A stretch of DNA of 64,000 nucleotides from Chrysomallon squamiferum. Taxonomy: Eukaryota > Animalia > Mollusca. Below the pieces are notes generated by a model. It saw only the letters and a program-made list of their open reading frames with translations, made no database searches and was not told the DNA's origin. Made by a program: the position numbers and the translations under genes. The number at the start of each line of letters is the position of its first letter. Within the stretch, counting starts at the first letter, position 1. Location: positions 2,542,001 to 2,606,000 of the forward strand of contig CM022678.1 in assembly GCA_012295275.1 (NCBI GenBank), read 5' to 3'. This document shows positions 1,791 through 58,910 of this stretch, in pieces.

Positions 1791-3411
1791 TTAACACGTA
1801 TCTGATTCTTCAATGTCAAGTACAGCTTTAAACAGTGATTCTCCATCAGGAAAATCTCTCCCGTTTCTCTGTCTCTCTAGCTGAATTGCCTTCCTTACAC
1901 TTTCTATACTGCATCCAAACTCTAGAACAGCGTCTATCATCGTACTGCGTACACCCGACATGACGTCATCATCGTTACGTATGCCCCCGACTGCGCCTTC
2001 TGGGTCATGGTCGTTGTTAGTTACATCGGTGATAGTTCTTACTTCCACAGAGGAGTCATTCCTGTTTGTGTTCCTCCATTAGAGATCAAGGGTGAGCAGC
2101 CTATGTTGAAGTGGTTGTTTTTTGCATATGTTTAGAAGTCCTGAACATGTCAATTTGATTTTTTTTTCCTCACATGTTGGTTAACAAAACAAATAATTTT
2201 GCTTTCTGTGTTTCTCAATGTCTAGCTATTTGATGACAGAGACTCTGGCTTGTTTTAATCTTCCCGCCTCTGTCTCTGGCAGTCTGGACACCTTCTTTAT
2301 ATTCTCTATACTGCATCAGTGGACTATCATCCTCTTCCCAGTCTCGTGAGTGACACCACACTGGAAACATCTTGATCTGTCCGCCAGATCCCAAGTGATA
2401 AACCCTTGCCTTCCATGGAGGAGTGGACTTTGGTGTTTGTATTTTAAAGATCCATCCAAAGCAACTGTCTAGCCTGGTCTGGTTTCTCTCATATGATGGG
2501 TATTTCGGACGAATTACAGAACGACACAGCTTTGTTTCTACCAGTTCAGATGTTGTTTTCTGTTTCCTCTTGTCCGCTTTGATGACATTCAGTGTGTGTT
2601 TTGTTTTTAGTTACTGAGCAAACTGGCAGTCGGGAGACCATGTGACATGGGCTTCCATGGACAATCATCCTCGTTTGTGTTCAGTATTTCCTCCATTACA
2701 TACTGGAAACATCAAAGGTATTTTCAGATTTCCTTTCAGATTGTTGTTCTTTGATTTTGTTCTCCTCAGTTGCCACCAATGTGTTGCTTTCTGTGTTTCT
2801 CTGTCACTATTTAAAGACACTCTGCATCTGGCTTGTTTTTTTTCCTTTGTCGAGCAAACTGAGGCAGTCGGGAGAGACCACGTGGCGTATTTCAATGGCG
2901 GCGTCTCCAGTGGAAAATCATCCTTTTCCCAGTCTCGTGAGTGATACCACACTGGAAACATCTTGCTCTGTCCACAGATCCCAAATCCAGAAAAACCCTC
3001 TGCCGCCTTGGACGAGGGACTTTGGTGTCACGTGATTTAGAGGCCACTCAAAGTTTGTCTAGCCTGGTCTGGTAGTTCTCATATGACTGGTATTTCCAGG
3101 AATTTCTTGTTTGGTTTTAATACCTGAAACTTCAGATGTCGTCTGGTTTCTCCCGCAAACCACTTATTAATGTAAGAGCAGTTCGTATGTTTGTATGTGT
3201 TTCAATGACGTATGTATGACTGCAAGCATTTTTATTTATTGAATGCCAATATATATTTCATATTTCACTTTGTCACCAATGGTTATGCAGGGTTTTTGAA
3301 TCCAGATATAGCTAGGAAAAACGAGACAATTGTTGATTTTTTGATTCCAATCTCTGTATGTAGCATGGTACCTCTGTTTTTTTTTAGTCTGCTTCTGGAT
3401 AAATGAATCAA
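1791..3411 (-). pseudogene. Degenerate inhibitor-of-apoptosis (IAP/BIRC) paralog: about 4 frameshifted BIR remnants plus an intact UBA-like C-terminus
   Basis: Minus-strand fragments match the intact IAP at 17133-18014. BIR1-like at ~3140-3380 (RYHATYRDWN..LAISGF..GDKVK..VIETH..CSYINKWFAGET). BIR2-like copies at ~2850-3100 (KYQSYENYQTRLD..AAEGF..LGSVDRARCFQCGIT/RDWEKDD), ~2615-2725 (CFQ..EDD..EAHVTWSPDCQFAQ*) and ~2270-2515 (PKYPSYERNQTRLD..ADRSRCFQCGVT/RDWEEDD). All carry frameshifts or stops. The 1791-2048 ORF (EGAVGG..MIDAVLEFGCSIESVRKAI..FPDGESLFKAVLD) aligns with the UBA-like tail of the intact IAP. Confidence 0.85.
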
Positions 3412-14108: not shown

Positions 14109-14903
14109 AACGATATAACAGATGGGTATCAGGTATCAAACTTGGAAATGCTTTCAGCAGTAATGACAAAAGGAAAGAAAAGAAAACTTCGATTAGCTAA
14201 TTAATCATTAAATGCTTTAATCTTATTTTATTTTATTTATATATACTAGGTCTAGTAAAAGTAGTAGCAACAGCAGCAGCCGAAGTAGTAGTAGTTGTAT
14301 AAATGTAGTATAATAGTAGCCGATGTTGGCGGTAGTGGCTTTGTTATTAGTAATTGCTGTTGGTATTGTACTAGTGTGTGTTTGTTTTTTTTTTTTTATG
14401 TTTGTTGTGCTGTTTTTTTATTATTATTATTGTTTTACAATGTTTTTTATTATTCTTTATCATTGTTGTTGGTGTGTAGCTGACGTTGTCTAGCTGGTGT
14501 TGGCAATCGTCTTCACCGTCATTTTTTCTCTCTCTCTTCTTTGTAATTTCGTTTTCTTCCAAACGCAGAAGCTGTCTTTTTATCAAACGTTCAATAACAG
14601 ATTGATTTAAATAAATAAGAAAGATATATGATAAGAAAAACATTTATTCATTCCGTTTGTCTATCCAAATTGATTATCAAAAATAACAATACCATGACAT
14701 CTTGCAAGTTAGCAGTTGGATAAATCTCAGAAAAAAAAAAACAACCTGAGGACAATATAAATAATAATAAATAAATAAATGTTCTGTTATTTATTTTTTA
14801 ATTTTATTTTTTTCCGGATTTTTTTAATTTTTATTATAGGATTTTTTTTTTGTTTGTTTGTTTGTTTGTTTCTTGTTGTTGTTTTTTACGACAATTATTG
14901 GCA

Positions 14904-16105
14904 TTAACCGGAAAACAGTTTACTTAAAAGATTGATAAATTCGGTTTTTCGCTTTTGAGACCAGTTTTGTATTTTCGTGCCAAATCCCTTGGCTTTATCG
15001 CTAGCTTTTTTCGCTGCGTCAGAAATCGTTTTTCCCACATCTTTAGCTTTGTTGACAACGTTGTAGGCGGTGTTTTTCACTTGCTGACTCAGACTGTTTA
15101 GTTTCTGAACAATACTGTCAAATAAACCTCGTCTGCTAGGTCCGCCATTACCACCGCCATTTTGATCCATGTTGTCGTCATTCACAATGATATTCATTTC
15201 CGAAAGTGCTTCTTGTATTTTTTCAATTAAATTCTGATTCCTGTCTTGAAACTCGGTCAACAAATGTTTGATTCCATCGCGCATGGATTTTAGATGTTTT
15301 CTTAGTTTTGAATCTGAAGAGACAAATAAAAAGTTTTATTGATAGATAGACAGATGGATAGATTAGTTAAGTTCATTTTTAAATGTACATAACTAAGCGT
15401 TTCTGCCATATAAACATACAAAGTTGTTTTTATTACTAATATAAGAACACGAAGAAAAAAGTAACATACTGAATGGATTTTAGCCAGCAAAAACAATCAG
15501 GAAAAAAAACAAATAAATAAATAGATAAATGCATTCAAGAATTGGTTCCATTTCTGACATCAATACCGTGGTAATCACAAAAAGGATATTCACTAAATTT
15601 CTTAATTTTCAAAAATTGACATTAGTATTCAAAATAAAGTTTTTTTTTTTTTTTCTTCTGTTGTGTTTGTTTGTTTGTTTGTGTGTCTGTTTGTTTTGGG
15701 GGTGTTGACGCTATAATGATGCTAAGGATAAGCTGAATACTTCGTTGTGAAAAAAAAAAGATTTTCTGAAATTTTGATAATTAAATAGCTCTCATCTTCC
15801 TTATTTTCTTCTAAAACAACAAACAAGATAACGTTACCCGTATCGGCAACTGAAACATCTCCATCGTCAATATCGTCAACGTTTGTTTCAGTACCGTCAG
15901 TGTTTTCATTTATGTCGTCTACCTTCACGGGTTTACCAATTTTATTGTCTTCTGCTGCAGAAATCTGTTCAAGGTTTTTCAACTCTTCCACCAATTTTAC
16001 AGCAGCATCGAAGTCCTTCTGTCTGACATAAAATCCATCTGCCGTAGCAAGAACAGCAGCGACGACAACAACGAAACAAAGCATTCTCACATATAATGAC
16101 AACAT
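14904..16105 (-). CDS. Orphan secreted prepropeptide (225 aa): signal peptide, acidic pro-region, RR and KRK sites, cationic amphipathic C-terminal peptides ending in Gly
   Basis: Exon 1 is 16105-15838 (donor G|GTAACG) and exon 2 is 15313-14904 (acceptor TTTGTCTCTTCAG). Phase 1 joins correctly (678 nt). N-terminal hydrophobic signal MLSLYVRMLCFVVVVAAVLATADG. TATAAATAG at 16170-16162. Confidence 0.85.
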
Positions 16106-17132
16106 AAATATGTTTTCAAATCTTCACTTCAGAGAAAAATGTGAAAGTTTATTTAGTCCTTCTATTTATATCAAGAGCAAGAAGGGCCTATAGGCTTTTC
16201 ATATGAATCATTCAACCTTTTTATATATATATTTCCTGATATTATCGTTTATAATTCCTAGGGGCAAAGACCTAATCACTTCTTAACATCAGTATTATTC
16301 AAATTTATTTTCATAAATAGTTATTACTGTCTTCTTTGCCTCTGCTAAGTTAATAACATGGAAATAACAAACATCAGGCGTTAAAAACCAGATAGATTTC
16401 GGTAATGCAGTGGAAACTTTCTTTGGAATAAATCTTGATGTTGCCCTAGACACAGAGAAATACTGAACATTATACCCTCTTTTCGGCACCTTTTAACACT
16501 GTCAAAAACTATGATTTGAAACAGTAAATACAACGAAAACCAGACAATAACAAAAATCATGTTGTGAAACATCATTTAATAGTTTAAGAGTGGCAAAGTT
16601 ACCTAAAAAAACAACAACAAGTACACAAAATAATCAATATAATTATACACGTATGCATAAGTAAAGAAATGAATCAATAAATCGATAAATCAACAAATCA
16701 ATCAATAAATAAAAAATAAAAATAATAAAAATAAAATATATAAAAACTGCATCTTTCTATCATTACCGAATTACGTTAAGAATCAGTTTATAGGTAATCT
16801 GGTTAACTTATGTTAATATAAAACATCTAAAATTGAACTAAATGTTAAGAAGTAATTGCACTGTCCAAAAATTTGAAAAAATAATGGCAGTGACTGCCTC
16901 CAAACTATGGTCAGGTGTTAAAACCGTCACATTAATAAAACAAACAAAAAGCAAATAATTATGTTGTTTCCTGATTGTGTACAACGGAATGAAACGAGAC
17001 TGTGTTCTCATTAGAATGTTTCAAACAAAGAAAGAAAACAAAAACACCTCTGTGATATTTTAAGTTTATAAGTTCGTGACATTGCATTTCTTTTTGTCTT
17101 ACTGTTCTTTGTCTTTCTTTCTTTTGTCATTC

Positions 17133-18014
17133 TCATCGTTTTTTGTTGTCCAATTCGTCCTGATAATCTAGCAAAGCTTCAACCAACTCCGAAGCGTTGT
17201 TGATTTCTTTTCCGTGTCTTCGTTTTGTTTCGTCTATCACTTTCATTACGAAACCAATTTTATATCCATATTCAAGAACTGCTGCGACCATTGCAGTGTT
17301 CTCGGTGTAGTGAGCGGCGCTGTCAACGTTAATAACACCGCCAACAGCGCCTAACTCTTCATCTTCCTCTTGTTCTTTGAAATGATCTTCAAAACTCTTT
17401 CCTTTCTCGAGCTCGCTGATCGATCCCTTCTGTTTACGTTGTTTTCTTCTGTGTGCGAATTCGCAAGCTGGTGCAAACTGGCGGTGGACATCGGCCGGGA
17501 CGTCGTCATCCTCCCAGTCTCGGAGTGTGAGACCGCAGTGGAAACACCTTGCCCTATCTGCCGACCCCAGGTAAAAAAAACCTTCAGCTGCCATTGCTGG
17601 TGGGCTTTGCAGTTCTGCCTTCCGCGGCCACGAACCGTAGCTGTCTACTCTGTTCTGGAATTCCTTGAATTCGGGGTACTTCGGCGGTACGGAATCATTT
17701 CCCACTTCGTACGCGGCGTCAGCGACAGTTTTCCCGTCAAACCATTTCTTGATGAACGCGCACTGTGGGGAATAAAGTTTGTGCATTTCTACAGCGTCAT
17801 CGTCGTCTCTCCAGTTGTAAAATCGGACGTTGCACGCGGGACACACAACCTTGTCTGCGTCTCCCGTGTAGCAGAACCCGGCTACTGCCAGCTGATACGC
17901 AGTTTTCTTCCCGTTCCAGCCAACAAATGTTTTGTACCTTCGTATGATGTTCTCTGCTTCTTTTGAAGAAGAGTTGATTTTGTAATAATTATTGCAGTTG
18001 ACTAATTCCGCCAT
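17133..18014 (-). CDS. Intronless inhibitor of apoptosis protein (BIR-BIR-UBA-like, no RING), 293 aa
   Basis: Two complete BIR domains with CxxC..H..C zinc ligands (CPAC..H..C; CFHC..H..C) and R..TF/SY..W and GF.Y.G..D motifs. C-terminal UBA-like helices (AAVLEYGYKIGFVMKVI..NNASELVEALLD). First ATG at 18014; the ORF-track start at 18038 is a GTG. Confidence 0.93.
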   Translation of the reverse strand: MAELVNCNNYYKINSSSKEAENIIRRYKTFVGWNGKKTAYQLAVAGFCYTGDADKVVCPACNVRFYNWRDDDDAVEMHKLYSPQCAFIKKWFDGKTVADAAYEVGNDSVPPKYPEFKEFQNRVDSYGSWPRKAELQSPPAMAAEGFFYLGSADRARCFHCGLTLRDWEDDDVPADVHRQFAPACEFAHRRKQRKQKGSISELEKGKSFEDHFKEQEEDEELGAVGGVINVDSAAHYTENTAMVAAVLEYGYKIGFVMKVIDETKRRHGKEINNASELVEALLDYQDELDNKKR

Positions 18015-18860: not shown

Positions 18861-20262
18861 TACTGAAGTACAAAAGAATATTTCTCTTTATTTATACAAT
18901 TTGTACAACGTATTTTAAAACACCATGTAGTCGTAACGAACTAAAGGCAACCCTGTTGATGTCTCCAAAACTCACCAAAAAACGTTATTCAGTGTTTTGT
19001 GAGAATTTAGCGAAAAACCCGATTTTCTGCAACTAGACATGCAATTTTGTTCATGCAGTATAAAACTCATTGGTGATTGTGCGGAAGCATTTAGGTTTTT
19101 ACAGAAAAACACAAGTTAAATGCCCAGATTGTCTGCAGCACAACGAAAGATTTATTGGTGGGGCACAGACTGGGGCTTCGAGCAGTCGTATTGCTCGAAC
19201 CTTTGGCTGCTCAGTGCAAACCATAAATAAACTCTGTAAACGATTTAACCAGTCACGTGATCGACCCAGAAGTGAAAGACCAAGTGTGACCACCCCAGGA
19301 GAAGACCAGTAGCTGCGCGTTCTCCACTTACGTAACAGGTTCATCACGGTGACGTCATCGGCATCAACAGCATCAGCAGGAACACAGTGACGAGGCGACT
19401 ACGTGCTGCCGGTATCCGGGTCTAAAGACCATTTCGCGGGATGTCCTTGACCCGTCAACATCGTATGAATCGTCTACGCTGGGCAAGGACAGTACGTCGC
19501 TGGCAACGTCGTAACTGGGTACGAGTGCCCGTCACTGATGAAAGCCGCTTCAACATGTTTCGTGCAGATGGCAGAGTGAGAATATACAGACGTGGAGGTG
19601 AACGACTGGCTCCACAATGCATTCAAGTAGTCCATCCCTACGGCGGCGGTGGTATCGTGGTTTGGGGAGGCATTTGTGGGGATCAGAGAACCCGCCCAGT
19701 CACCATCCAGGGAAATCTGACAGCTCAGTGATATATAAAGCAAGATTTGCAACCGGTTCTCCTTCCTTGCTTACGGCCGGGGTTCAGATTGCAGCAAGAC
19801 AACGCCAGTCCGCGTACTGCCAGAATCAACATGGACTTCATTAACCTCCATAACGTTCACGTACTGCCAGCACGCTCCCGTTTGAACATCTATGGGACCA
19901 GCTGGGAAGACAACTGAGACGTGGACCACATCAACCAGCCGATCTGCAGTAGCTGGAACAGGCCCTGCAAGAAGTGCGGACACGGATCCCAAATAACGTC
20001 ATCCAACGGCTGAGAAGGAGTGCCAACAGAGGTCATACAAGATCGAACATGTTCCATTCACTACTGTGATAAACTGTCGACTTTGCTTATGGAATTTTCC
20101 ATTTATAAATCGCACATATTTGAATGAATCTCACGCTGTTAATATTGTCGCTGAAGAATGGCACATCGAGTATCAATACACATTTTCAGAGCGTGCAAAT
20201 GTTTTGTTGTTTTTGACTTATAGGAATTATTCTGGGTGGAAACTTTTTTTTGTATTTCATTA
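18861..20262 (+). mobile_element. Defective Tc1/mariner (IS630-Tc1) DNA transposon, ~1.4 kb
   Basis: Imperfect TIRs TACTGAAGTACAAAAGAATATTTC / GAAACTTTTTTTTGTATTTCATTA with TA flanks. Transposase from ATG 19120 (MPRLS..IARTFGCSVQTI..DRPRSERPSVTT..TDESRF..GGGIVVWGGI..QQDNA) is broken by frameshifts and stops, and the SPDLNPIE region is deleted. Confidence 0.92.
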
Positions 20263-20407: not shown

Positions 20408-21969
20408 ATCTCTGCAAATTGACCGTAAGCAACAACTGGATGGTGCTGTTCGAAGGAGTAGAGGAAATTTCAAGTAACAAATAAGAACGGAAGTCATTCC
20501 TCCATCGTTCGCAACGATGTAAACTAAAATATAAACGAACGATAACTTTGACATGAGGCCTTAAAATATTGGTTAGTATAATATTAAATTATTTAATGAT
20601 AATACTTTTTCATTTAACAATAATTATCAGGAAAACATATTTTCATTGCTTTTACAATGTTGTTAATAAAGATAGGATGCTCAGCCTACGGTAGTGATCA
20701 AATGTAGTTTGTAAAGGTACTCAACTAATCTATAATCTAATAATCATAATGTAATAATATTAATACAAAATATATATATACTAATAATTAATCTGCTGAT
20801 CTTCGTCATAATATTTATTTTGTAATACTAAATGTTACAAAAAAAAAAAAAAAAATCAGAAAAGTTCATTATATTTTACGTTTACGCAAACAAACCTGAC
20901 ATTATTGAGCATTTATATACACATTTATTTATTTATTTAGTAGTAGTAGTAGTAGTAGTATCACAAATTAATTATGTCTGTTTCACATATATGCAGCAAG
21001 TGGTAGTAGTCACAAACAGACATGGACAACATTCCATCTTTAAAAAATTCTAGGAAATGAAATTCTGCAATGCATCATAAGCCTAAGGCCTTCAAAAAAA
21101 ACAACAAACCAAAAAAAACATTGCTAAAGTGTATGTGTACCAGGTAATCATTTTAATATTCTTGCTGACCATATCAAACTGTCATGCAATGAAAAAAATA
21201 TAGTAATTTCCATTCTGCTTGTTTGGGGGAAATTGTGGAAAAGTGTTACTGTTAATAAATATTATTTGTTTAATTATCATTAAAAATTTATTGCTAAAAT
21301 GGGGATTGAGTAAATGAAATCTGGCCAACCCTTTTCTTTTCTTTTTTTTTTAAATCAGTTTCAATTCATTTTGATGTATAAATTACTTGTATTTCTTGTT
21401 TATTGACCGAAAATGTGTCATCAGATTAACGAAGTAAAAATCTAGCATGTACAAAATTCTGTTTAAACTAAAACTGTCTGAGTAGATCTTTACTCAGGCA
21501 AAACTCGGTAACTACCAAACATATTCATATTTCAATTTTCATGAAAATGTGAGTTACTTGATATTTTTTTCCAATGGATGGCAGTACTGAAATAAAATTT
21601 ATTTTCCATGATGTTTTCTTTTTGTGTTATTGTCTTTTTAAAAGAATTATAAAAAATTTAAATTTGTATTTATTAATATTGTTATTGTTATCATCATCAT
21701 TATTATTATTACTTTTATTATTATTATCATTATTTTATTATTATTATTATTTTTTTTATTATTATTATTATTATTTTATCTTTTTATTTTATTTTATTTT
21801 ATTTAAAAAATTTTTTAACAGTACAGTTATCCTAATTATGTCTTGATAAAACACTTATACCATACTATATTTTTAACACCATTGTTAATACCATTCATGA
21901 CATCGTTTTACCTTCCATTAATATTTCCGTCAGTGTTAAATTTTATTCATTTCAGAATGAGCTCACAGT

Positions 21970-22609
21970 ATGAGTGATTTCTCAACCAGTACAAATATAT
22001 ACATTGGAGGTCTGAAACCGGGAGTTGGTAGTGGAAAACTAAAACGTCATTTCATTACCTTGTTCAGACAGATTGGCATCACTGTTAGAAAGAGTCAGAT
22101 TATCATAGTTGATCGAAACCCCGAATACGTCTACGCATTCATCAACCTCGAGGACGAAGAGGCCGTCCACCTTGCGCTTCATCACCTCCAGACGCCAGAG
22201 CGACGCGACAGTGTCACTTTTAATTTCAGTCTGATAAGTGATCAGGTCAGACAGTTGAAATTCGACTATCGCAAGAGCAACAAGAAAAAAGACGAAGGTT
22301 ACATCGTCTCAAATGAGCCGAGCGTCGCGTTTGAAGACTCGCTGTCCAGTTTGATAAAACCAGCACTCTTCAAAAGAACTTACAAATTCAGAGAAAAGCT
22401 GGGCAATGAAACTCGCAATGCCGAATTCAAAGAAGGTAAGTTTATGGAAATGAACAAGAGGCAGATCATTCTCAACACGGTTGGTAAATACGTCTGCAGT
22501 TTTCTCAACAGTGAAGGTGGAACGTTATACATCGGCGTGAATAATGATGGTAAGCACGATGTTTATTTATTTTTTATTTATTTATTTATTTAATTTATTA
22601 TTTGTTAGT

Positions 22610-45906: not shown

Positions 45907-46442
45907 GATTCGTTACTGTTAATCAGAAAACGTTGTTCATGAATTGCGGTAGTGGGTTTCTTCTAATATAATATATAATATCAATAATAAGTACATAAAT
46001 AAAATGTCCTGCTTTCGTTCTGTATAAAGAAACAAGAGTCATTTTTCAGAATTAACGTTCCCAACTTCACCGGTAAGCTCACAGAAGTCCCGACCACGTA
46101 CGGAAAGTTACGAAGTTCGTTCTCGCTTGAACTGTCGAGGGCAGTGACCCCAAACGGTCATTTCTGTCCGAAGGTAAACTCTTGTTGTTGTTGTTGTGCA
46201 GCTGGTATGTAAACATGCGACCCGTTTGGCAACGTGTATCAGCGGAAAGAACCGTCAAAACAAGATACGTTTATCCCGTTCTCGCCGAGTCCTTAAATCA
46301 GTGTAAACAGACCATTCTAAAGACCGATAAAAACTGGAAGTGATAACAGTGATAATTCAGTTTAGTTTACGTGTGGGTAATTTTCGAGCGAAGGCTTCCT
46401 CACAAAGGAGAAAATTAATTCTTTGTATTAATAATATTAACA

Positions 46443-52696
<6,254 letters not shown>

Positions 52697-55534: not shown

Positions 55535-56219
55535 ACCTATTTCAGTCTTTTGTATCTTTATCTCAAATATTTTAATAATTAAAGACATAGTAGACAATTA
55601 AGTAGACATAAGGAGAGATTCAGATGGAGTACATGTAAAAAATACATCAAATATTCTTATTTCTTTTTCTTTTTTTTCAGCCGTCCTAAAATCGTAGTCC
55701 ATCAGTTAGGGCGTGGCCCACGAGCCCCGAGCCTCGGTCCATTCGTGGTCAAACTGGAAACGTACATGAGAATGGCGAGAATTAATTACACGGTTTGTAA
55801 CGTTCTATTTTTTCGTTATCTTTTTTTACGTTTTGAACGGGGATTTTGGGGTCGTTGTTTTTTTTTTTTTTTTTTTTTTACCTTTTTTTCTTCCATTTCC
55901 TTCGTTTATTCTTTTTCTTTTCTATTTATTCTTTCTTATTTTTCGTAGGGGATATTATTTATTTATTTATTTATTTATTTATGTATTCGGGTGTTTAGGT
56001 ATAAAGAAATGTGAGTTAATACGAAGGAGATTAGTCTCAGCTGGCAAAAATTTGTTATATGTCTATAAACTACCATAATCGTATTAACACCCCGAACCAT
56101 GAATGTGTGTGTGTGAGTGTCCGAGTGTTTATGTGCGTATGTATGCGTGCGTGCGTGTGTGTATTTATGTTTATTTATTTATTCGTATTTTTGTATATAA
56201 CTGTTTGTGTGTTTTCGTG

Positions 56220-56270
<51 letters not shown>

Positions 56271-56358
56271 TTATGTCCACAGTCATATTTAACACTTTCG
56301 AATAAAACGAACGATATGGGTCTAACTGATCTTTCATTATGTACAGTTTTTAAATTAA

Positions 56359-56418
<60 letters not shown>

Positions 56419-56760
56419 GTAACAGTAACAGTAACAATAACAATAATAATAATAAATAAAATTATTTTATTTATTTATAATTTTACTATTTATTAAAAGC
56501 AAGTCAGCTTTTGTGGGAAAGGTCAAATATTTATTTATTTATTTATTTAAATATTTATTAAACAGAGTGAATTTGGATGGAAAATGTCTTCAAAGGGTAA
56601 AATACCCTGGATCACGTTTAATGGCAAGTCTATCGACGACTCCCAGCACTGCATCGAGTTCCTCAACAAAAACCTCGGAGTTGACCTCAACAGACAGCTG
56701 ACGTCAGAACAGCGTGCAGTGGCGCGTGCGTTTCAGAAAATGATAGAAGAAAATACATAC

Positions 56761-56826
<66 letters not shown>

Positions 56827-58224
56827 CATATCGTTAAATATACTACTGCTATTATTACTTAGTGTGGACCAAAAACAACAAAAACCAGTATACTACTGTC
56901 ACTACTACTTCTCCTTCCGTTACTACTACTATTACTAAACACTACTACATATTATTTCAACTACTAGTATTATTACTTCTACTACTATCATGGCTACTAC
57001 AACACCATTATTACAGCTGTTACTATCACTTCTACTACTACCACAGCTACTGCTACTACTACTACTGCTGCTATTAATAATAATAGCATTATCATTGCTG
57101 CTATTACCACCACCAACAACATTACTACTGCTATTACTATTACCACCACCACCATCACCACAACCACTACTGTTACAACTACTACTACTGCTACTACTAT
57201 TACTACAGCTACAACTTCTACAACTACTACTACAACATCAACGAAGTCGACCGTCACTGTTATAACCACATTTATTTTTAGGTTACTGGTACTCAGTCGG
57301 TTTATATACGACAACAAGGAATTCATGAACAAAGTTTGTGGCTTTCCAAAACTCCTGATCTGGGTGCTCTCGAGAAAGTGCAAGAAAATGGCCGACGCGC
57401 ATGGAATCGGTCGACACAACCAGAACGAACTGGTAGACATCCTCCACGGCGATCTCGAAGCGCTGTCCGTATTTTTAGGTACTAAGACTAAAATATAAAT
57501 TAACTTTAGTGTTCAAAATATATAAGTGTTTTTATTTTGTAATAATAATTATCATATTTTTTTGTTTCCTTTTATGTCGCCAGTTTGGGCAGTTCCACAT
57601 TCCAAACAGTGCTTTTGTGTTTAGTTTATCGACACCCGTGGTTTGTGTTTCCCTGTTTGAAGAAAGGTCACCCATTACCACTGTTTGGTTTGATATCGAT
57701 AAAACAAGTCTAGATAATACCGCTGCGGACTTCCCCTCTCAAATCGTTGTTAACAGAAAACAGTTCATTTACATTTGACATCCGAGAATTAATTGCACGT
57801 AATAAAATAATGTTTAATAATTGTATAATAATTCTGTATATTAATTATTACTCCTATGTAATAACACAAAAAATATATTTAGCCACAGAATTCTGTGTCT
57901 GTCGTGCTATTTATTCAGCATTCTCTACTATTTTTCCCTTGTCGCTAAAAACATTTACGAGAAAAGACGAACACGGAACAGGAAGTAAAACGCATTGCTC
58001 TGATCGCTTTAAGCAGGGTAGAGTTATTTCCCTTAAGTACTTTGTTCGAATCTTGTTCGAAAATCTTCCTATTTTATAAAGAAGAAAGAAAAAGAAAATC
58101 ATATTTTTAGTTAGTTAATTAATTAATTAATAATAATAATAATCAATAATTATATTTATTACATTTATTATTATTATTATTTTTATTATTATTATTATTT
58201 TATTATTATTATTATATTTATTAC

Positions 58225-58274
<50 letters not shown>

Positions 58275-58428
58275 TGACAAAATGTTCTTATTTGGTGATG
58301 AACCGTGTGAAACTGATGCTGCAATATTTGGTATGTTGTCTCAGTTCCGCTGGCAAAACCCAGGAGCTCCCGGGGAAAAATTTGTCACAGGTAATACTTC
58401 CTGTTTTTACGTAAAACGTTCGGGAAAT

Positions 58429-58467
<39 letters not shown>

Positions 58468-58910
58468 TGTATTTATGTATTTATGTATTTATTTATTTCA
58501 TAGTTTTTATTTTATTTTATTTAAAATGATTTTATTTTATTTTGTTATTGTTCTTATATAAATATACTGTAAATATAATGTACATGTTATAATATGAATA
58601 AATTGCTGATATAATTAATGTGGCATCTGAAGGATTAATTAATTAGTTATAAAAGCGAATCAACTTCACATTTATTATTATTGATGTTGTTGTTATTGTT
58701 GTTGTTGTTGCTGCTGCTGTTGTTATTGTTGTTGCTGCTGCTGTTGTTATTGTTGTTATTATGTGGTTGTGTTGTTATTATTGTCGTTGTTTTTTTCCCC
58801 TAGAAACATTCGTGAATCTCCGTAATTACTGCGACCGAATGAAAACGAGATTCTGGCCGGACTGGGACGAATGCATTACGCATGACGGAAAAACCAAACC
58901 ACCAAAATAA
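55420..58910 (+). CDS. FAXC: Failed axon connections homolog (FAXC)-like, metaxin-like GST-fold protein, 6 exons, 244 aa
   Basis: Exons 55420-55424 (ATGAG|GTAAGA), 55681-55792, 56566-56762, 57282-57478, 58274-58390, 58804-58910 (735 nt). Motifs PSLGPFVVKLETYMRMA, SSKGKIPWITFNG..DSQ.CIEFL, ARAFQKMIEENTYW, HGIGRH, DLEALSVFLGDK.FLFGDEP..DAAIFG, YCDRMK.RFWPDW. Confidence 0.9.

What the first reader, a model, noticed from the sequence alone, without database searches (positions are those of the whole stretch)
14904..16105. Orphan secreted precursor with the architecture of a multi-peptide antimicrobial/cytolytic prepropeptide
Seen: splicing the two ORFs gives signal peptide (..VLATADG) - acidic pro-region (DDINENTDGTETNVDDIDDGDVSVADTD) - helical linker - GGGNGGPSRR|GLFDSIVQKLNSLSQQVKNTAYNVVNKAKDVGKTISDAAKKASDKAKGFGTKIQNWSQ|KRK|TEFINLLSKLFSG*. 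The 58-aa segment after RR has 10 Lys and 4 Asp (net about +6), no Cys, and helical amphipathic periodicity. The final 13-mer ends in Gly. The gene has a TATA box and lies ~1 kb from a kB-bearing IAP. Established: signal + acidic pro-piece + dibasic convertase site + cationic helix + C-terminal Gly amidation donor is the layout of frog-skin AMP and venom cytolysin precursors; aurein/citropin peptides begin GLFD, and temporin/mastoparan-type peptides are short amidated helices. Inference: this may be an undescribed cysteine-free invertebrate AMP/toxin family releasing two peptides, with resemblance to frog peptides arising by convergence. An alternative is a secreted LEA/apolipoprotein-like lipid-binding protein (the KAKDVGKTISD/AAKKASDKAKG 11-mers).
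Basis: partly seen in the sequence, partly recalled or inferred. Interest (0 to 1): 0.82.

Follow-up and report, generated by a model that had tools for sequence, protein, structure and literature searches.

The report
Vent-snail long amidated helix precursor
A spliced snail gene, shared with the deep-sea vent snail Gigantopelta and with no other clear relative in the databases searched, encodes a predicted secreted precursor that likely releases one long, positively charged, membrane-binding helix (not two peptides, as first proposed), most likely as a defence against bacteria, though no activity has been shown.

Summary
The gene is real. One RNA contig supports the 15838/15313 splice. A full-length ortholog exists in the vent snail Gigantopelta aegis, so it is lineage-restricted, not an orphan. 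The ortholog keeps the signal peptide, two helical pro-segments (18 of 23 and 23 of 44 identical), RR|GxF, a gap-free 73-residue Cys-free cationic helix (net +9 here, +15 there) and the terminal Gly (SG versus SGK). It does not keep KRK (RQR), and the predicted helix runs through that site. The two-peptide, temporin-like reading is therefore not supported; one ~8.1-kDa amidated helix is likely. Its charge layout is apolipoprotein-like with a cationic excess, and its middle is weakly hydrophobic. Best reading: a membrane-active host-defence peptide (0.5); the main rival is a lipid-binding secretion protein (0.22). No Pfam family passes its cut-off, and six accession or motif terms found no paper. 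The TATA box and the kB/IAP link are weak. The scan had not noted this on other DNA. Activity, processing and tissue are untested.

The parts
16163..16170 (-). TATA-like box 64 nt upstream of the ATG (weak evidence)
   Evidence: the consensus occurs 1.5 times per kb per strand in this window
15838..16105 (-). coding exon 1 (268 nt)
   Evidence: homologous to the N-terminal part of the ortholog, E 5e-9
16034..16105 (-). predicted signal peptide, residues 1-24; likely cut after Gly24
   Evidence: 11-residue hydropathy 3.4; A-x-[G/A]|F shared with the ortholog; no SignalP was available
15965..16033 (-). pro-helix A, residues 25-47, the most conserved segment
   Evidence: 18 of 23 identical to the ortholog
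15839..15964 (-). acidic, poorly conserved spacer (net -11 in its last 28 residues)
15314..15837 (-). 524-nt GT..AG phase-1 intron, 27% GC
   Evidence: junction supported by one RNA contig
14904..15313 (-). coding exon 2 (410 nt with stop codon)
   Evidence: covered by contigs of RNA runs X1 and X2
15180..15311 (-). pro-helix B, 44 residues, amphipathic and near neutral
   Evidence: 23 of 44 identical; moment 0.48, reached by 0 of 2000 shuffles; predicted helix 2-44
15135..15179 (-). Gly/Asn-rich flexible spacer
   Evidence: coil in the model; 15-residue indel against the ortholog
15129..15134 (-). RR, predicted convertase site (precursor residues 150-151)
   Evidence: the only dibasic pair shared in position with the ortholog
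14910..15128 (-). predicted mature peptide: 73 residues, ~8.1 kDa, pI 10.1, net +9, one amphipathic helix
   Evidence: same length and no gap in the ortholog, 30 of 74 identical counting the Gly; predicted helix 60-133; mass and pI
14946..14954 (-).
   Evidence: RQR in the ortholog, 0 of 3 identical
14907..14909 (-). terminal Gly, predicted amide donor
   Evidence: the ortholog ends in SGK; Gly plus a basic residue is a CPE/PAM signal (PMC5577615 section 2.1)
14790..14835 (-). three AATAAA hexamers in an A-rich 3' flank (candidate poly-A signals)
   Evidence: weak in such AT-rich DNA

Best explanation
This spliced two-exon snail gene encodes a 225-residue precursor that is predicted to be secreted and likely cut once, at RR, to release a single 73-residue, likely C-terminally amidated, cationic amphipathic helix that most likely binds and disturbs anionic (bacterial) membranes as a host-defence peptide. 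Shown: the gene, the splice junction (one contig), RNA cover of exon 2, the ortholog, and conservation of RR|GxF, length, charge sign, amphipathic register and terminal Gly. Inferred: signal cleavage after Gly24; convertase cleavage at RR; amidation; helix formation on a membrane. In that helix two hydrophobic ends (about residues 1-18 and the last 12) would anchor in the bilayer, while a Lys/Ala-rich, weakly hydrophobic middle lies on the head groups, carpet-like. The acidic, helical pro-domain likely keeps the peptide inactive or sorts it into secretory granules. Control of surface or symbiotic bacteria is a guess from the lineage.
For: The layout (signal, acidic pro-part, basic site, one long cationic peptide) is that of spider simple precursors and cytoinsectotoxins (PMC8290080 passages). 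In two snails the mature part keeps length (73, no gap), net charge (+9, +15), no Cys or Pro, and whole-length amphipathicity (0 of 2000 shuffles each), but only 30 of 74 residues. This suggests selection on physical properties rather than on a receptor-binding motif. The pro-part carries the opposite charge (-23 in the ortholog, -12 here). Conserved flanks with a more variable cationic core also mark myticalins (PMC5577615 section 2.1). The terminal Gly or Gly-Lys is kept. The only clear relative is from a chemosymbiotic peltospirid with expanded immune gene families (bioRxiv 10.1101/2020.09.23.308304 section 7).
Against: The charge layout is class A (apolipoprotein-like), not class L. 10 of 11 acidic residues lie 120-180 degrees from the apolar face; of 35 Lys/Arg, 19 lie at the boundary (60-120) and 15 on the polar face (class definitions from PMC8000854 passages). 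The middle 37 residues have mean hydrophobicity -0.01 and -0.08, low for a lytic peptide. The best Pfam matches of the mature part are ApoLp-III and ApoC-I, all below cut-off, and none of the 6 listed is an AMP family. One copy was found in the window and one clear relative in the databases, whereas AMP genes are often multigene (recalled); no genome was held to count copies. The allele differences, 8 of 10 non-silent, match the neutral expectation and show no sign of positive selection. Contig depth is low (2-16), and no kB-like site lies at this gene.
Confidence: 0.5

Rival explanations
1. A secreted exchangeable lipid-binding protein. The released helix (or the whole helical precursor) coats lipid particles, mucus or granule lipids, or LPS, like an apolipoprotein, perilipin or LEA-type 11-mer helix, without lysing cells.
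For: Class A charge layout in both the mature helix and pro-helix B. Sub-threshold Pfam matches to ApoLp-III (E 2.6e-5, 24.8 bits against a cut-off of 36.3), Apolipoprotein, Phasin and ApoC-I. The middle part is Ala-rich and weakly hydrophobic.
Against: No family reaches its cut-off. Strong cationic excess (+9, +15) in the released part against an acidic pro-part. A conserved RR site and amide donor are not needed by a plain apolipoprotein (established knowledge). No LEA family among the 6 listed for the mature part.
Confidence: 0.22
2. One reading: cuts at both RR and KRK release a 58-mer and an amidated 12-mer of temporin or mastoparan type.
For: KRK is in the window's sequence and unchanged in RNA runs X1 and X2. 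The last 12 residues are strongly amphipathic (moment 0.65; 67 of 5000 shuffles). The ortholog keeps two single Arg there (RQR), so a monobasic cut is not excluded.
Against: 0 of 3 residues identical at the site, and no dibasic pair there in the ortholog. The helix is predicted through it with the highest confidence of the model (pLDDT 91-93 over residues 111-130). The 12-mer would have net charge 0 here and +1 in the ortholog.
Confidence: 0.1
3. A lineage-specific peptide hormone or pheromone of the long amidated helix kind (ELH/CRH/DH44-like) acting on a receptor.
For: Prohormone layout with a dibasic site and amide donor. The conserved helix right after the signal could be a granule-sorting helix (recalled idea). 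ELH peptides are amidated and partly helical (PMC4200219 passages).
Against: Oyster ELHs are 38-42 residues against 73 here. The C-terminal 38 residues match 0 Pfam families at E up to 10. The mature part is less conserved than the pro-helices, the reverse of the usual hormone pattern (established knowledge).
Confidence: 0.1
4. A gamete or gland secretion protein that fuses or cross-links membranes with its two hydrophobic ends, as the cationic amphipathic sperm proteins of abalones do (recalled).
For: Long cationic helix with hydrophobic ends and a hydrophilic middle; lineage-restricted; many amino-acid differences among alleles (7 of 9 variant codons).
Against: No match to a lysin family among the rows shown or in PDB sequences. 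The allele pattern equals the neutral expectation. No tissue data.
Confidence: 0.08

Closest known systems
Gigantopelta aegis uncharacterized protein LOC121377702 (XP_041361716.1; P0005)
   Same: Ortholog by sequence (E 3e-21, 47% identity): signal, helix A, acidic spacer, helix B, Gly spacer, RR|GxF, 73-residue cationic helix, terminal Gly.
   Different: 253 against 225 aa (longer spacers); net +15 against +9; RQR in place of KRK; ends in SGK. It has no assigned function and was found in 0 papers by accession.
Spider simple-precursor linear peptides and cytoinsectotoxins (PMC8290080, passages)
   Same: Signal, acidic propeptide, one long (over 60 aa) cationic linear peptide, often amidated. 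The closest match in how it would work.
   Different: The propeptides of simple precursors are 27-57 aa in that paper; the pro-domain here is about 125-150 aa with two conserved helices and ends in a dibasic RR. No sequence link was found, and no venom is known for this lineage (recalled).
Myticalins and modiocalins of mussels (PMC5577615, abstract and section 2.1)
   Same: Molluscan, linear, cationic, lineage-restricted; conserved flanks, dibasic site, Gly-based amidation, variation between individuals.
   Different: There the mature part is 23-42 aa, Arg-rich and mostly Pro-rich, lacks predicted structure and precedes the acidic extension, in a multigene family. Here it is 73 aa, Lys-rich, helical and follows the acidic part.
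Frog-skin AMP precursors
   Same: Order of parts, and a GLF start after a basic site.
   Different: No Pfam match to such a family; much longer pro-domain and mature part. The ortholog starts GFFS, so the fourth residue D is not kept. The likeness is convergence or chance.
Exchangeable apolipoproteins and apolipophorin-III (Pfam PF07464, PF01442, PF04691)
   Same: Long class-A-like amphipathic helix; sub-threshold profile matches.
   Different: Below the curated cut-offs; strongly cationic; released from a pro-domain and likely amidated.
Lingula anatina LOC106178393 and LOC106159799 (P0006-P0008)
   Same: Predicted precursors of tandem 80-aa helical units separated by RKGR, most followed by GLFD; weak likeness to helix B, the Gly spacer and the cut site (E 1.9e-4).
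   Different: The 80-aa units are slightly acidic (net -2) and end in a basic site with no terminal amide Gly. The likeness is borderline (alignment score 61, reversed query 48, shuffle maximum 54), so homology is not established.

Membership tests
Frog-skin AMP precursors | signal + acidic pro-piece + dibasic site + cationic amphipathic helix (layout) | tested here: met
Frog-skin AMP precursors | sequence homology of the prepro part or mature peptide to the family | tested here: not met
   The exon-1 protein gave 1 unrelated Pfam row at E up to 10; the mature part gave 6 rows, none an AMP family. HMMER filters drop weak matches.
Frog-skin AMP precursors | short mature peptide (roughly 10-35 aa, recalled) | tested here: not met
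   73 aa conserved without gaps; the internal KRK is not conserved
Linear cationic helical AMPs or cytolysins (functional class) | measured killing or membrane permeabilisation | not testable with these tools
   needs a bench assay
Linear cationic helical AMPs or cytolysins (functional class) | class L layout: no acidic residues, basic residues clustered at the centre of the polar face | tested here: not met
   11 acidic residues in the two peptides, 10 of them at the polar centre; 15 of 35 basic residues there. No control set of real AMPs was scored.
Spider simple-precursor long linear peptides | one cationic peptide of over 60 aa after an acidic propeptide | tested here: met
   predicted from conservation; processing not shown
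Spider simple-precursor long linear peptides | processing quadruplet motif (Arg with a nearby Glu; definition recalled) | tested here: not met
   the sites read G-P-S-R-R and G-L-A-R-R
Myticalins | mature cationic region of 23-42 aa, over 10% Arg, before an anionic C-terminal extension | tested here: not met
   order reversed; 73 aa; 1 Arg and 13 Lys; 0 Pro
Molluscidins | repeated dibasic residues, non-amphipathic (PMC11767717 passage) | tested here: not met
   strongly amphipathic, 0 of 2000 shuffles
Exchangeable apolipoproteins / ApoLp-III | class A helix: acidic centre of the polar face, basic residues at the boundary | tested here: met
   with a large excess of Lys
Exchangeable apolipoproteins / ApoLp-III | Pfam gathering score | tested here: not met
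   24.8 against 36.3 bits (ApoLp-III) and 19.7 against 90 (Apolipoprotein); 19.6 and 14.7 for the ortholog
Exchangeable apolipoproteins / ApoLp-III | helix-bundle fold | tested here: inconclusive
   The exon-2 model is a two-helix hairpin with pTM 0.42 and only generic matches, best Z 9.3; the whole-precursor model has pLDDT 39.
LEA proteins | match to an LEA profile | tested here: not met
   none among the 6 families listed for the mature part; two searches showed only the best 25 of 31 and of 29 rows
ELH/CRH/DH44 hormones | 38-42 aa amidated peptide with family similarity | tested here: not met
   73 aa; the C-terminal 38 aa match 0 Pfam families

The most novel reading that the evidence does not exclude
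An undescribed effector family of chemosymbiotic vent snails: a 73-residue amidated 'cationic apolipoprotein-like' helix, held by its own conserved helical pro-domain and used to police surface or symbiotic bacteria. It would descend from an old lophotrochozoan precursor type that survives in the brachiopod Lingula as tandem convertase-cut helical units.
Probability: 0.1. Interest if true: 0.8.

Novelty: new variant of a known kind. Interest (0 to 1): 0.5.

Why it matters
A 2025 review lists only a handful of gastropod AMPs, and none of this layout (PMC11767717 section 4.7.4). Linear cationic peptides over 60 residues are rare even in spider venoms (PMC8290080 passage). The section on symbiont control in the Gigantopelta preprint names recognition receptors and lectins but no effector peptide. 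A defined 8-kDa candidate, conserved in two related snails and open to synthesis, makes that question testable. It would also be an example of an apolipoprotein-type helix turned cationic and released by a convertase. If it proves to be a lipid-coating secretion protein, it is a modest lineage-specific gene.

Tried and rejected
Homolog searches. The word-indexed search with the exon-2 protein found nothing among 14 candidates, because the 253-aa ortholog lay outside its length window. The profile search returned only the ortholog among 7994 scored candidates. Two metagenome scans gave 0 of 365 and 0 of 523 pattern hits confirmed. ESM Atlas feature hits were all under 0.8, and the structure hits were generic. 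PDB sequence searches gave mostly designed coiled coils. Foldseek found 0 matches at E up to 0.001; VIA-align's best Z was 9.3, ordinary for helical hairpins.

Structure. The whole-precursor model was unusable (pLDDT 39). The complex job of pro-domain against mature helix returned no verdict (score 0.01).

RNA. Run X4 laid 0 contigs, which is no proof of absence. The small word shares of X1 and X2 say nothing of tissue or habitat. No whole genome was held, so copy number is unknown.

Rejected ideas. Co-regulation with the IAP: the kB-like site is upstream of the IAP only, and in G. aegis the best IAP hit and the ortholog lie on contigs of different length, 91.7 and 47.5 Mb; the IAP hit may be a paralog. 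Positive selection from alleles: 2 silent of 10 changes equals the 0.20 expected. Internal duplication of helix B and the mature helix: 543 of 1000 shuffles scored as high. Homology to the Lingula precursors is left open: helix A against the last unit was reached by 2 of 1000 shuffles for this protein but 63 of 1000 for the ortholog.

Literature. Accessions and two motifs gave 0 papers. The listings showed no paper on this gene (listings and abstract starts only, except the papers named as read). Supplements of the Gigantopelta preprint were not seen and may hold tissue expression of the ortholog.

Full report
Observation. The window is 30% GC animal DNA. On the minus strand, exon 1 (16105-15838) and exon 2 (15313-14904) flank a 524-nt GT..AG phase-1 intron with a pyrimidine tract, and give 225 residues. 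Four public runs were laid on 14890-15345. RNA run X2 has one 468-nt contig (depth 3) that follows exon 2 to the acceptor and then carries nine letters equal to the end of exon 1, a 9-mer found once in the window; the chance is about 0.002. RNA run X1 covers exon 2 with 5 contigs, one of which runs on into the intron. X3 (kind not on record) covers part of it and X4 nothing. The junction is thus supported, by one contig. The TATA box is present, but its consensus occurs 198 times in the window. The kB-like site is 1 of 4 in the window and sits upstream of the IAP.

Lineage. The neighbouring IAP's best named relative is from Gigantopelta aegis at 40% identity, a peltospirid gastropod. A full HMMER search of 1.84 billion representatives with the exon-2 protein gave 2 hits at E up to 0.001. 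The first, at E 3e-21, is G. aegis LOC121377702, uncharacterized, which also matches exon 1 (E 5e-9). The window therefore likely comes from a related but different snail: G. aegis averages 37% GC (preprint 10.1101/2020.09.23.308304, figure-legend passage). Earlier unreviewed notes on this genome suggest the scaly-foot snail; I did not test the species. A profile search found no third clear member.

What the ortholog shows. Identity by region: signal 10 of 23; helix A just after it 18 of 23; helix B 23 of 44; Gly spacer 6 of 15, with a 15-residue indel; RR 2 of 2; the part after RR 30 of 74 with no gap; KRK 0 of 3; last 13 residues 7 of 13. The ortholog ends in SGK. Gly followed by a basic residue is a standard signal for carboxypeptidase E and PAM amidation (PMC5577615 section 2.1), so both products would end in Ser-amide. 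Of 5 dibasic pairs in this protein and 6 in the ortholog, only RR coincides. AlphaFold2 on the exon-2 protein predicts one helix from residue 60 to 133, with its best confidence (91-93) around KRK. The hydrophobic face stays on one side through the tail in both species, with whole-length moments of 0.42 and 0.45 reached by 0 of 2000 shuffles. The likely product is one 73-residue peptide of about 8.1 kDa, pI 10.1 and 10.5, net +9 and +15. A monobasic cut at the ortholog's RQR is not excluded.

Anatomy of the helix. The first and last 18 residues are moderately hydrophobic (0.39 and 0.41 here; 0.31 and 0.21 in the ortholog). The middle 37 are not (-0.01, -0.08) and are rich in Lys and Ala. Acidic residues sit at the centre of the polar face (10 of 11). 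Of 35 basic residues, 19 are at the boundary, 15 on the polar face and 1 near the apolar face. This is the class A layout of apolipoproteins, not the class L layout, as defined in PMC8000854 (passages), but with about three basic residues per acidic one. It explains the sub-threshold Pfam matches to ApoLp-III, Apolipoprotein, Phasin and ApoC-I. I scored no control set of real AMPs, so the layout lowers the AMP reading but does not exclude it.

Variation. The runs show 10 differing sites in 9 codons; 7 codons change the residue, and none touches RR|GLF, KRK or the terminal Gly. Two silent changes of 10 equal the neutral share of 0.20, so this shows neither positive nor purifying selection.

Mechanism. 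Shown: gene, splice, ortholog, and the conserved site, length, charge and amide donor. Inferred: secretion, a single convertase cut, amidation, and binding to anionic membranes by a long surface-lying helix with two anchors. Selection appears to keep physical properties rather than sequence in the released part, while the pro-helices keep more sequence. That fits a membrane- or lipid-directed effector with a chaperoning or sorting pro-domain better than a receptor ligand. The cationic excess, the opposite charge of the pro-part and the amide donor favour bacterial membranes as the target (0.5) over neutral lipid handling (0.22). Two-peptide release (0.1), a hormone (0.1) and a gamete or gland fusogen (0.08) remain. 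The whole-precursor fold could not be modelled.

Comparison with known systems. It would work like spider simple-precursor long linear peptides (PMC8290080 passages) and shares broad traits with mussel myticalins, but fails their defining features. It is not a frog-type AMP, molluscidin, LEA, ApoLp-III or ELH family member by the tests listed. The second HMMER hit is a Lingula anatina precursor with tandem 80-residue helical units split by RKGR, most followed by GLFD. It resembles helix B, the spacer and the cut site, but only marginally above reversed and shuffled controls (61 against 48 and a maximum of 54), so it is a lead only.

Novelty. The ortholog is deposited but uncharacterized. Six accession or motif terms found 0 papers; other searches are listed under Tried and rejected. 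A review's section on gastropod AMPs names nothing similar (PMC11767717 section 4.7.4). The scan's look-up by sequence returned only an unrelated phage note, and nothing nearby. Verdict: a real, lineage-restricted, undescribed precursor with a known general layout and unusual specifics (a long single helix, a conserved helical pro-domain, a class A layout with cationic excess). Function is untested; interest 0.5.

Noticed in passing
window 17133-18014 (-): Intronless IAP-like ORF of 293 aa with two BIR domains (Pfam E 5e-38) and a short C-terminal domain but no RING match; 40% identical to a G. aegis BIRC3-like protein. A kB-like site lies 95 nt upstream of its ATG.
   Followed up: partly
window 1794-3030 (-): Degenerate paralog of that IAP: its C-terminal part matches at E 4e-10, and the BIR-like parts lie in shifted frames and give no Pfam hit. 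Likely a pseudogene.
   Followed up: partly
window 21961-22590 (+): Exon with a Schlafen AlbA_2 domain (Pfam E 3.8e-10) behind an RRM-looking stretch (by eye); possibly SLFNL1-like (label recalled).
   Followed up: partly
window 19064-19917 (+): Broken reading frames that look like a Tc1/mariner transposase remnant (by eye); the one piece scanned gave no Pfam hit at E up to 0.01.
   Followed up: partly
window 46400-52600 (+) and 55583-58500 (+): Exons of an AMP-binding (acyl-CoA ligase-like) gene and of a GST C-terminal-domain gene.
   Followed up: partly
P0006-P0008 (Lingula anatina LOC106178393, LOC106159799): Uncharacterized brachiopod precursors made of near-identical 80-aa amphipathic, slightly acidic units separated by RKGR, most starting GLFD; 0 papers found by accession. 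A candidate multi-copy peptide precursor in its own right.
   Followed up: partly
window 15324 (run X3): A 7-base deletion in the intron's 3' end just before the acceptor in a contig of run X3; it may be an allele that shortens the pyrimidine tract.
   Followed up: no
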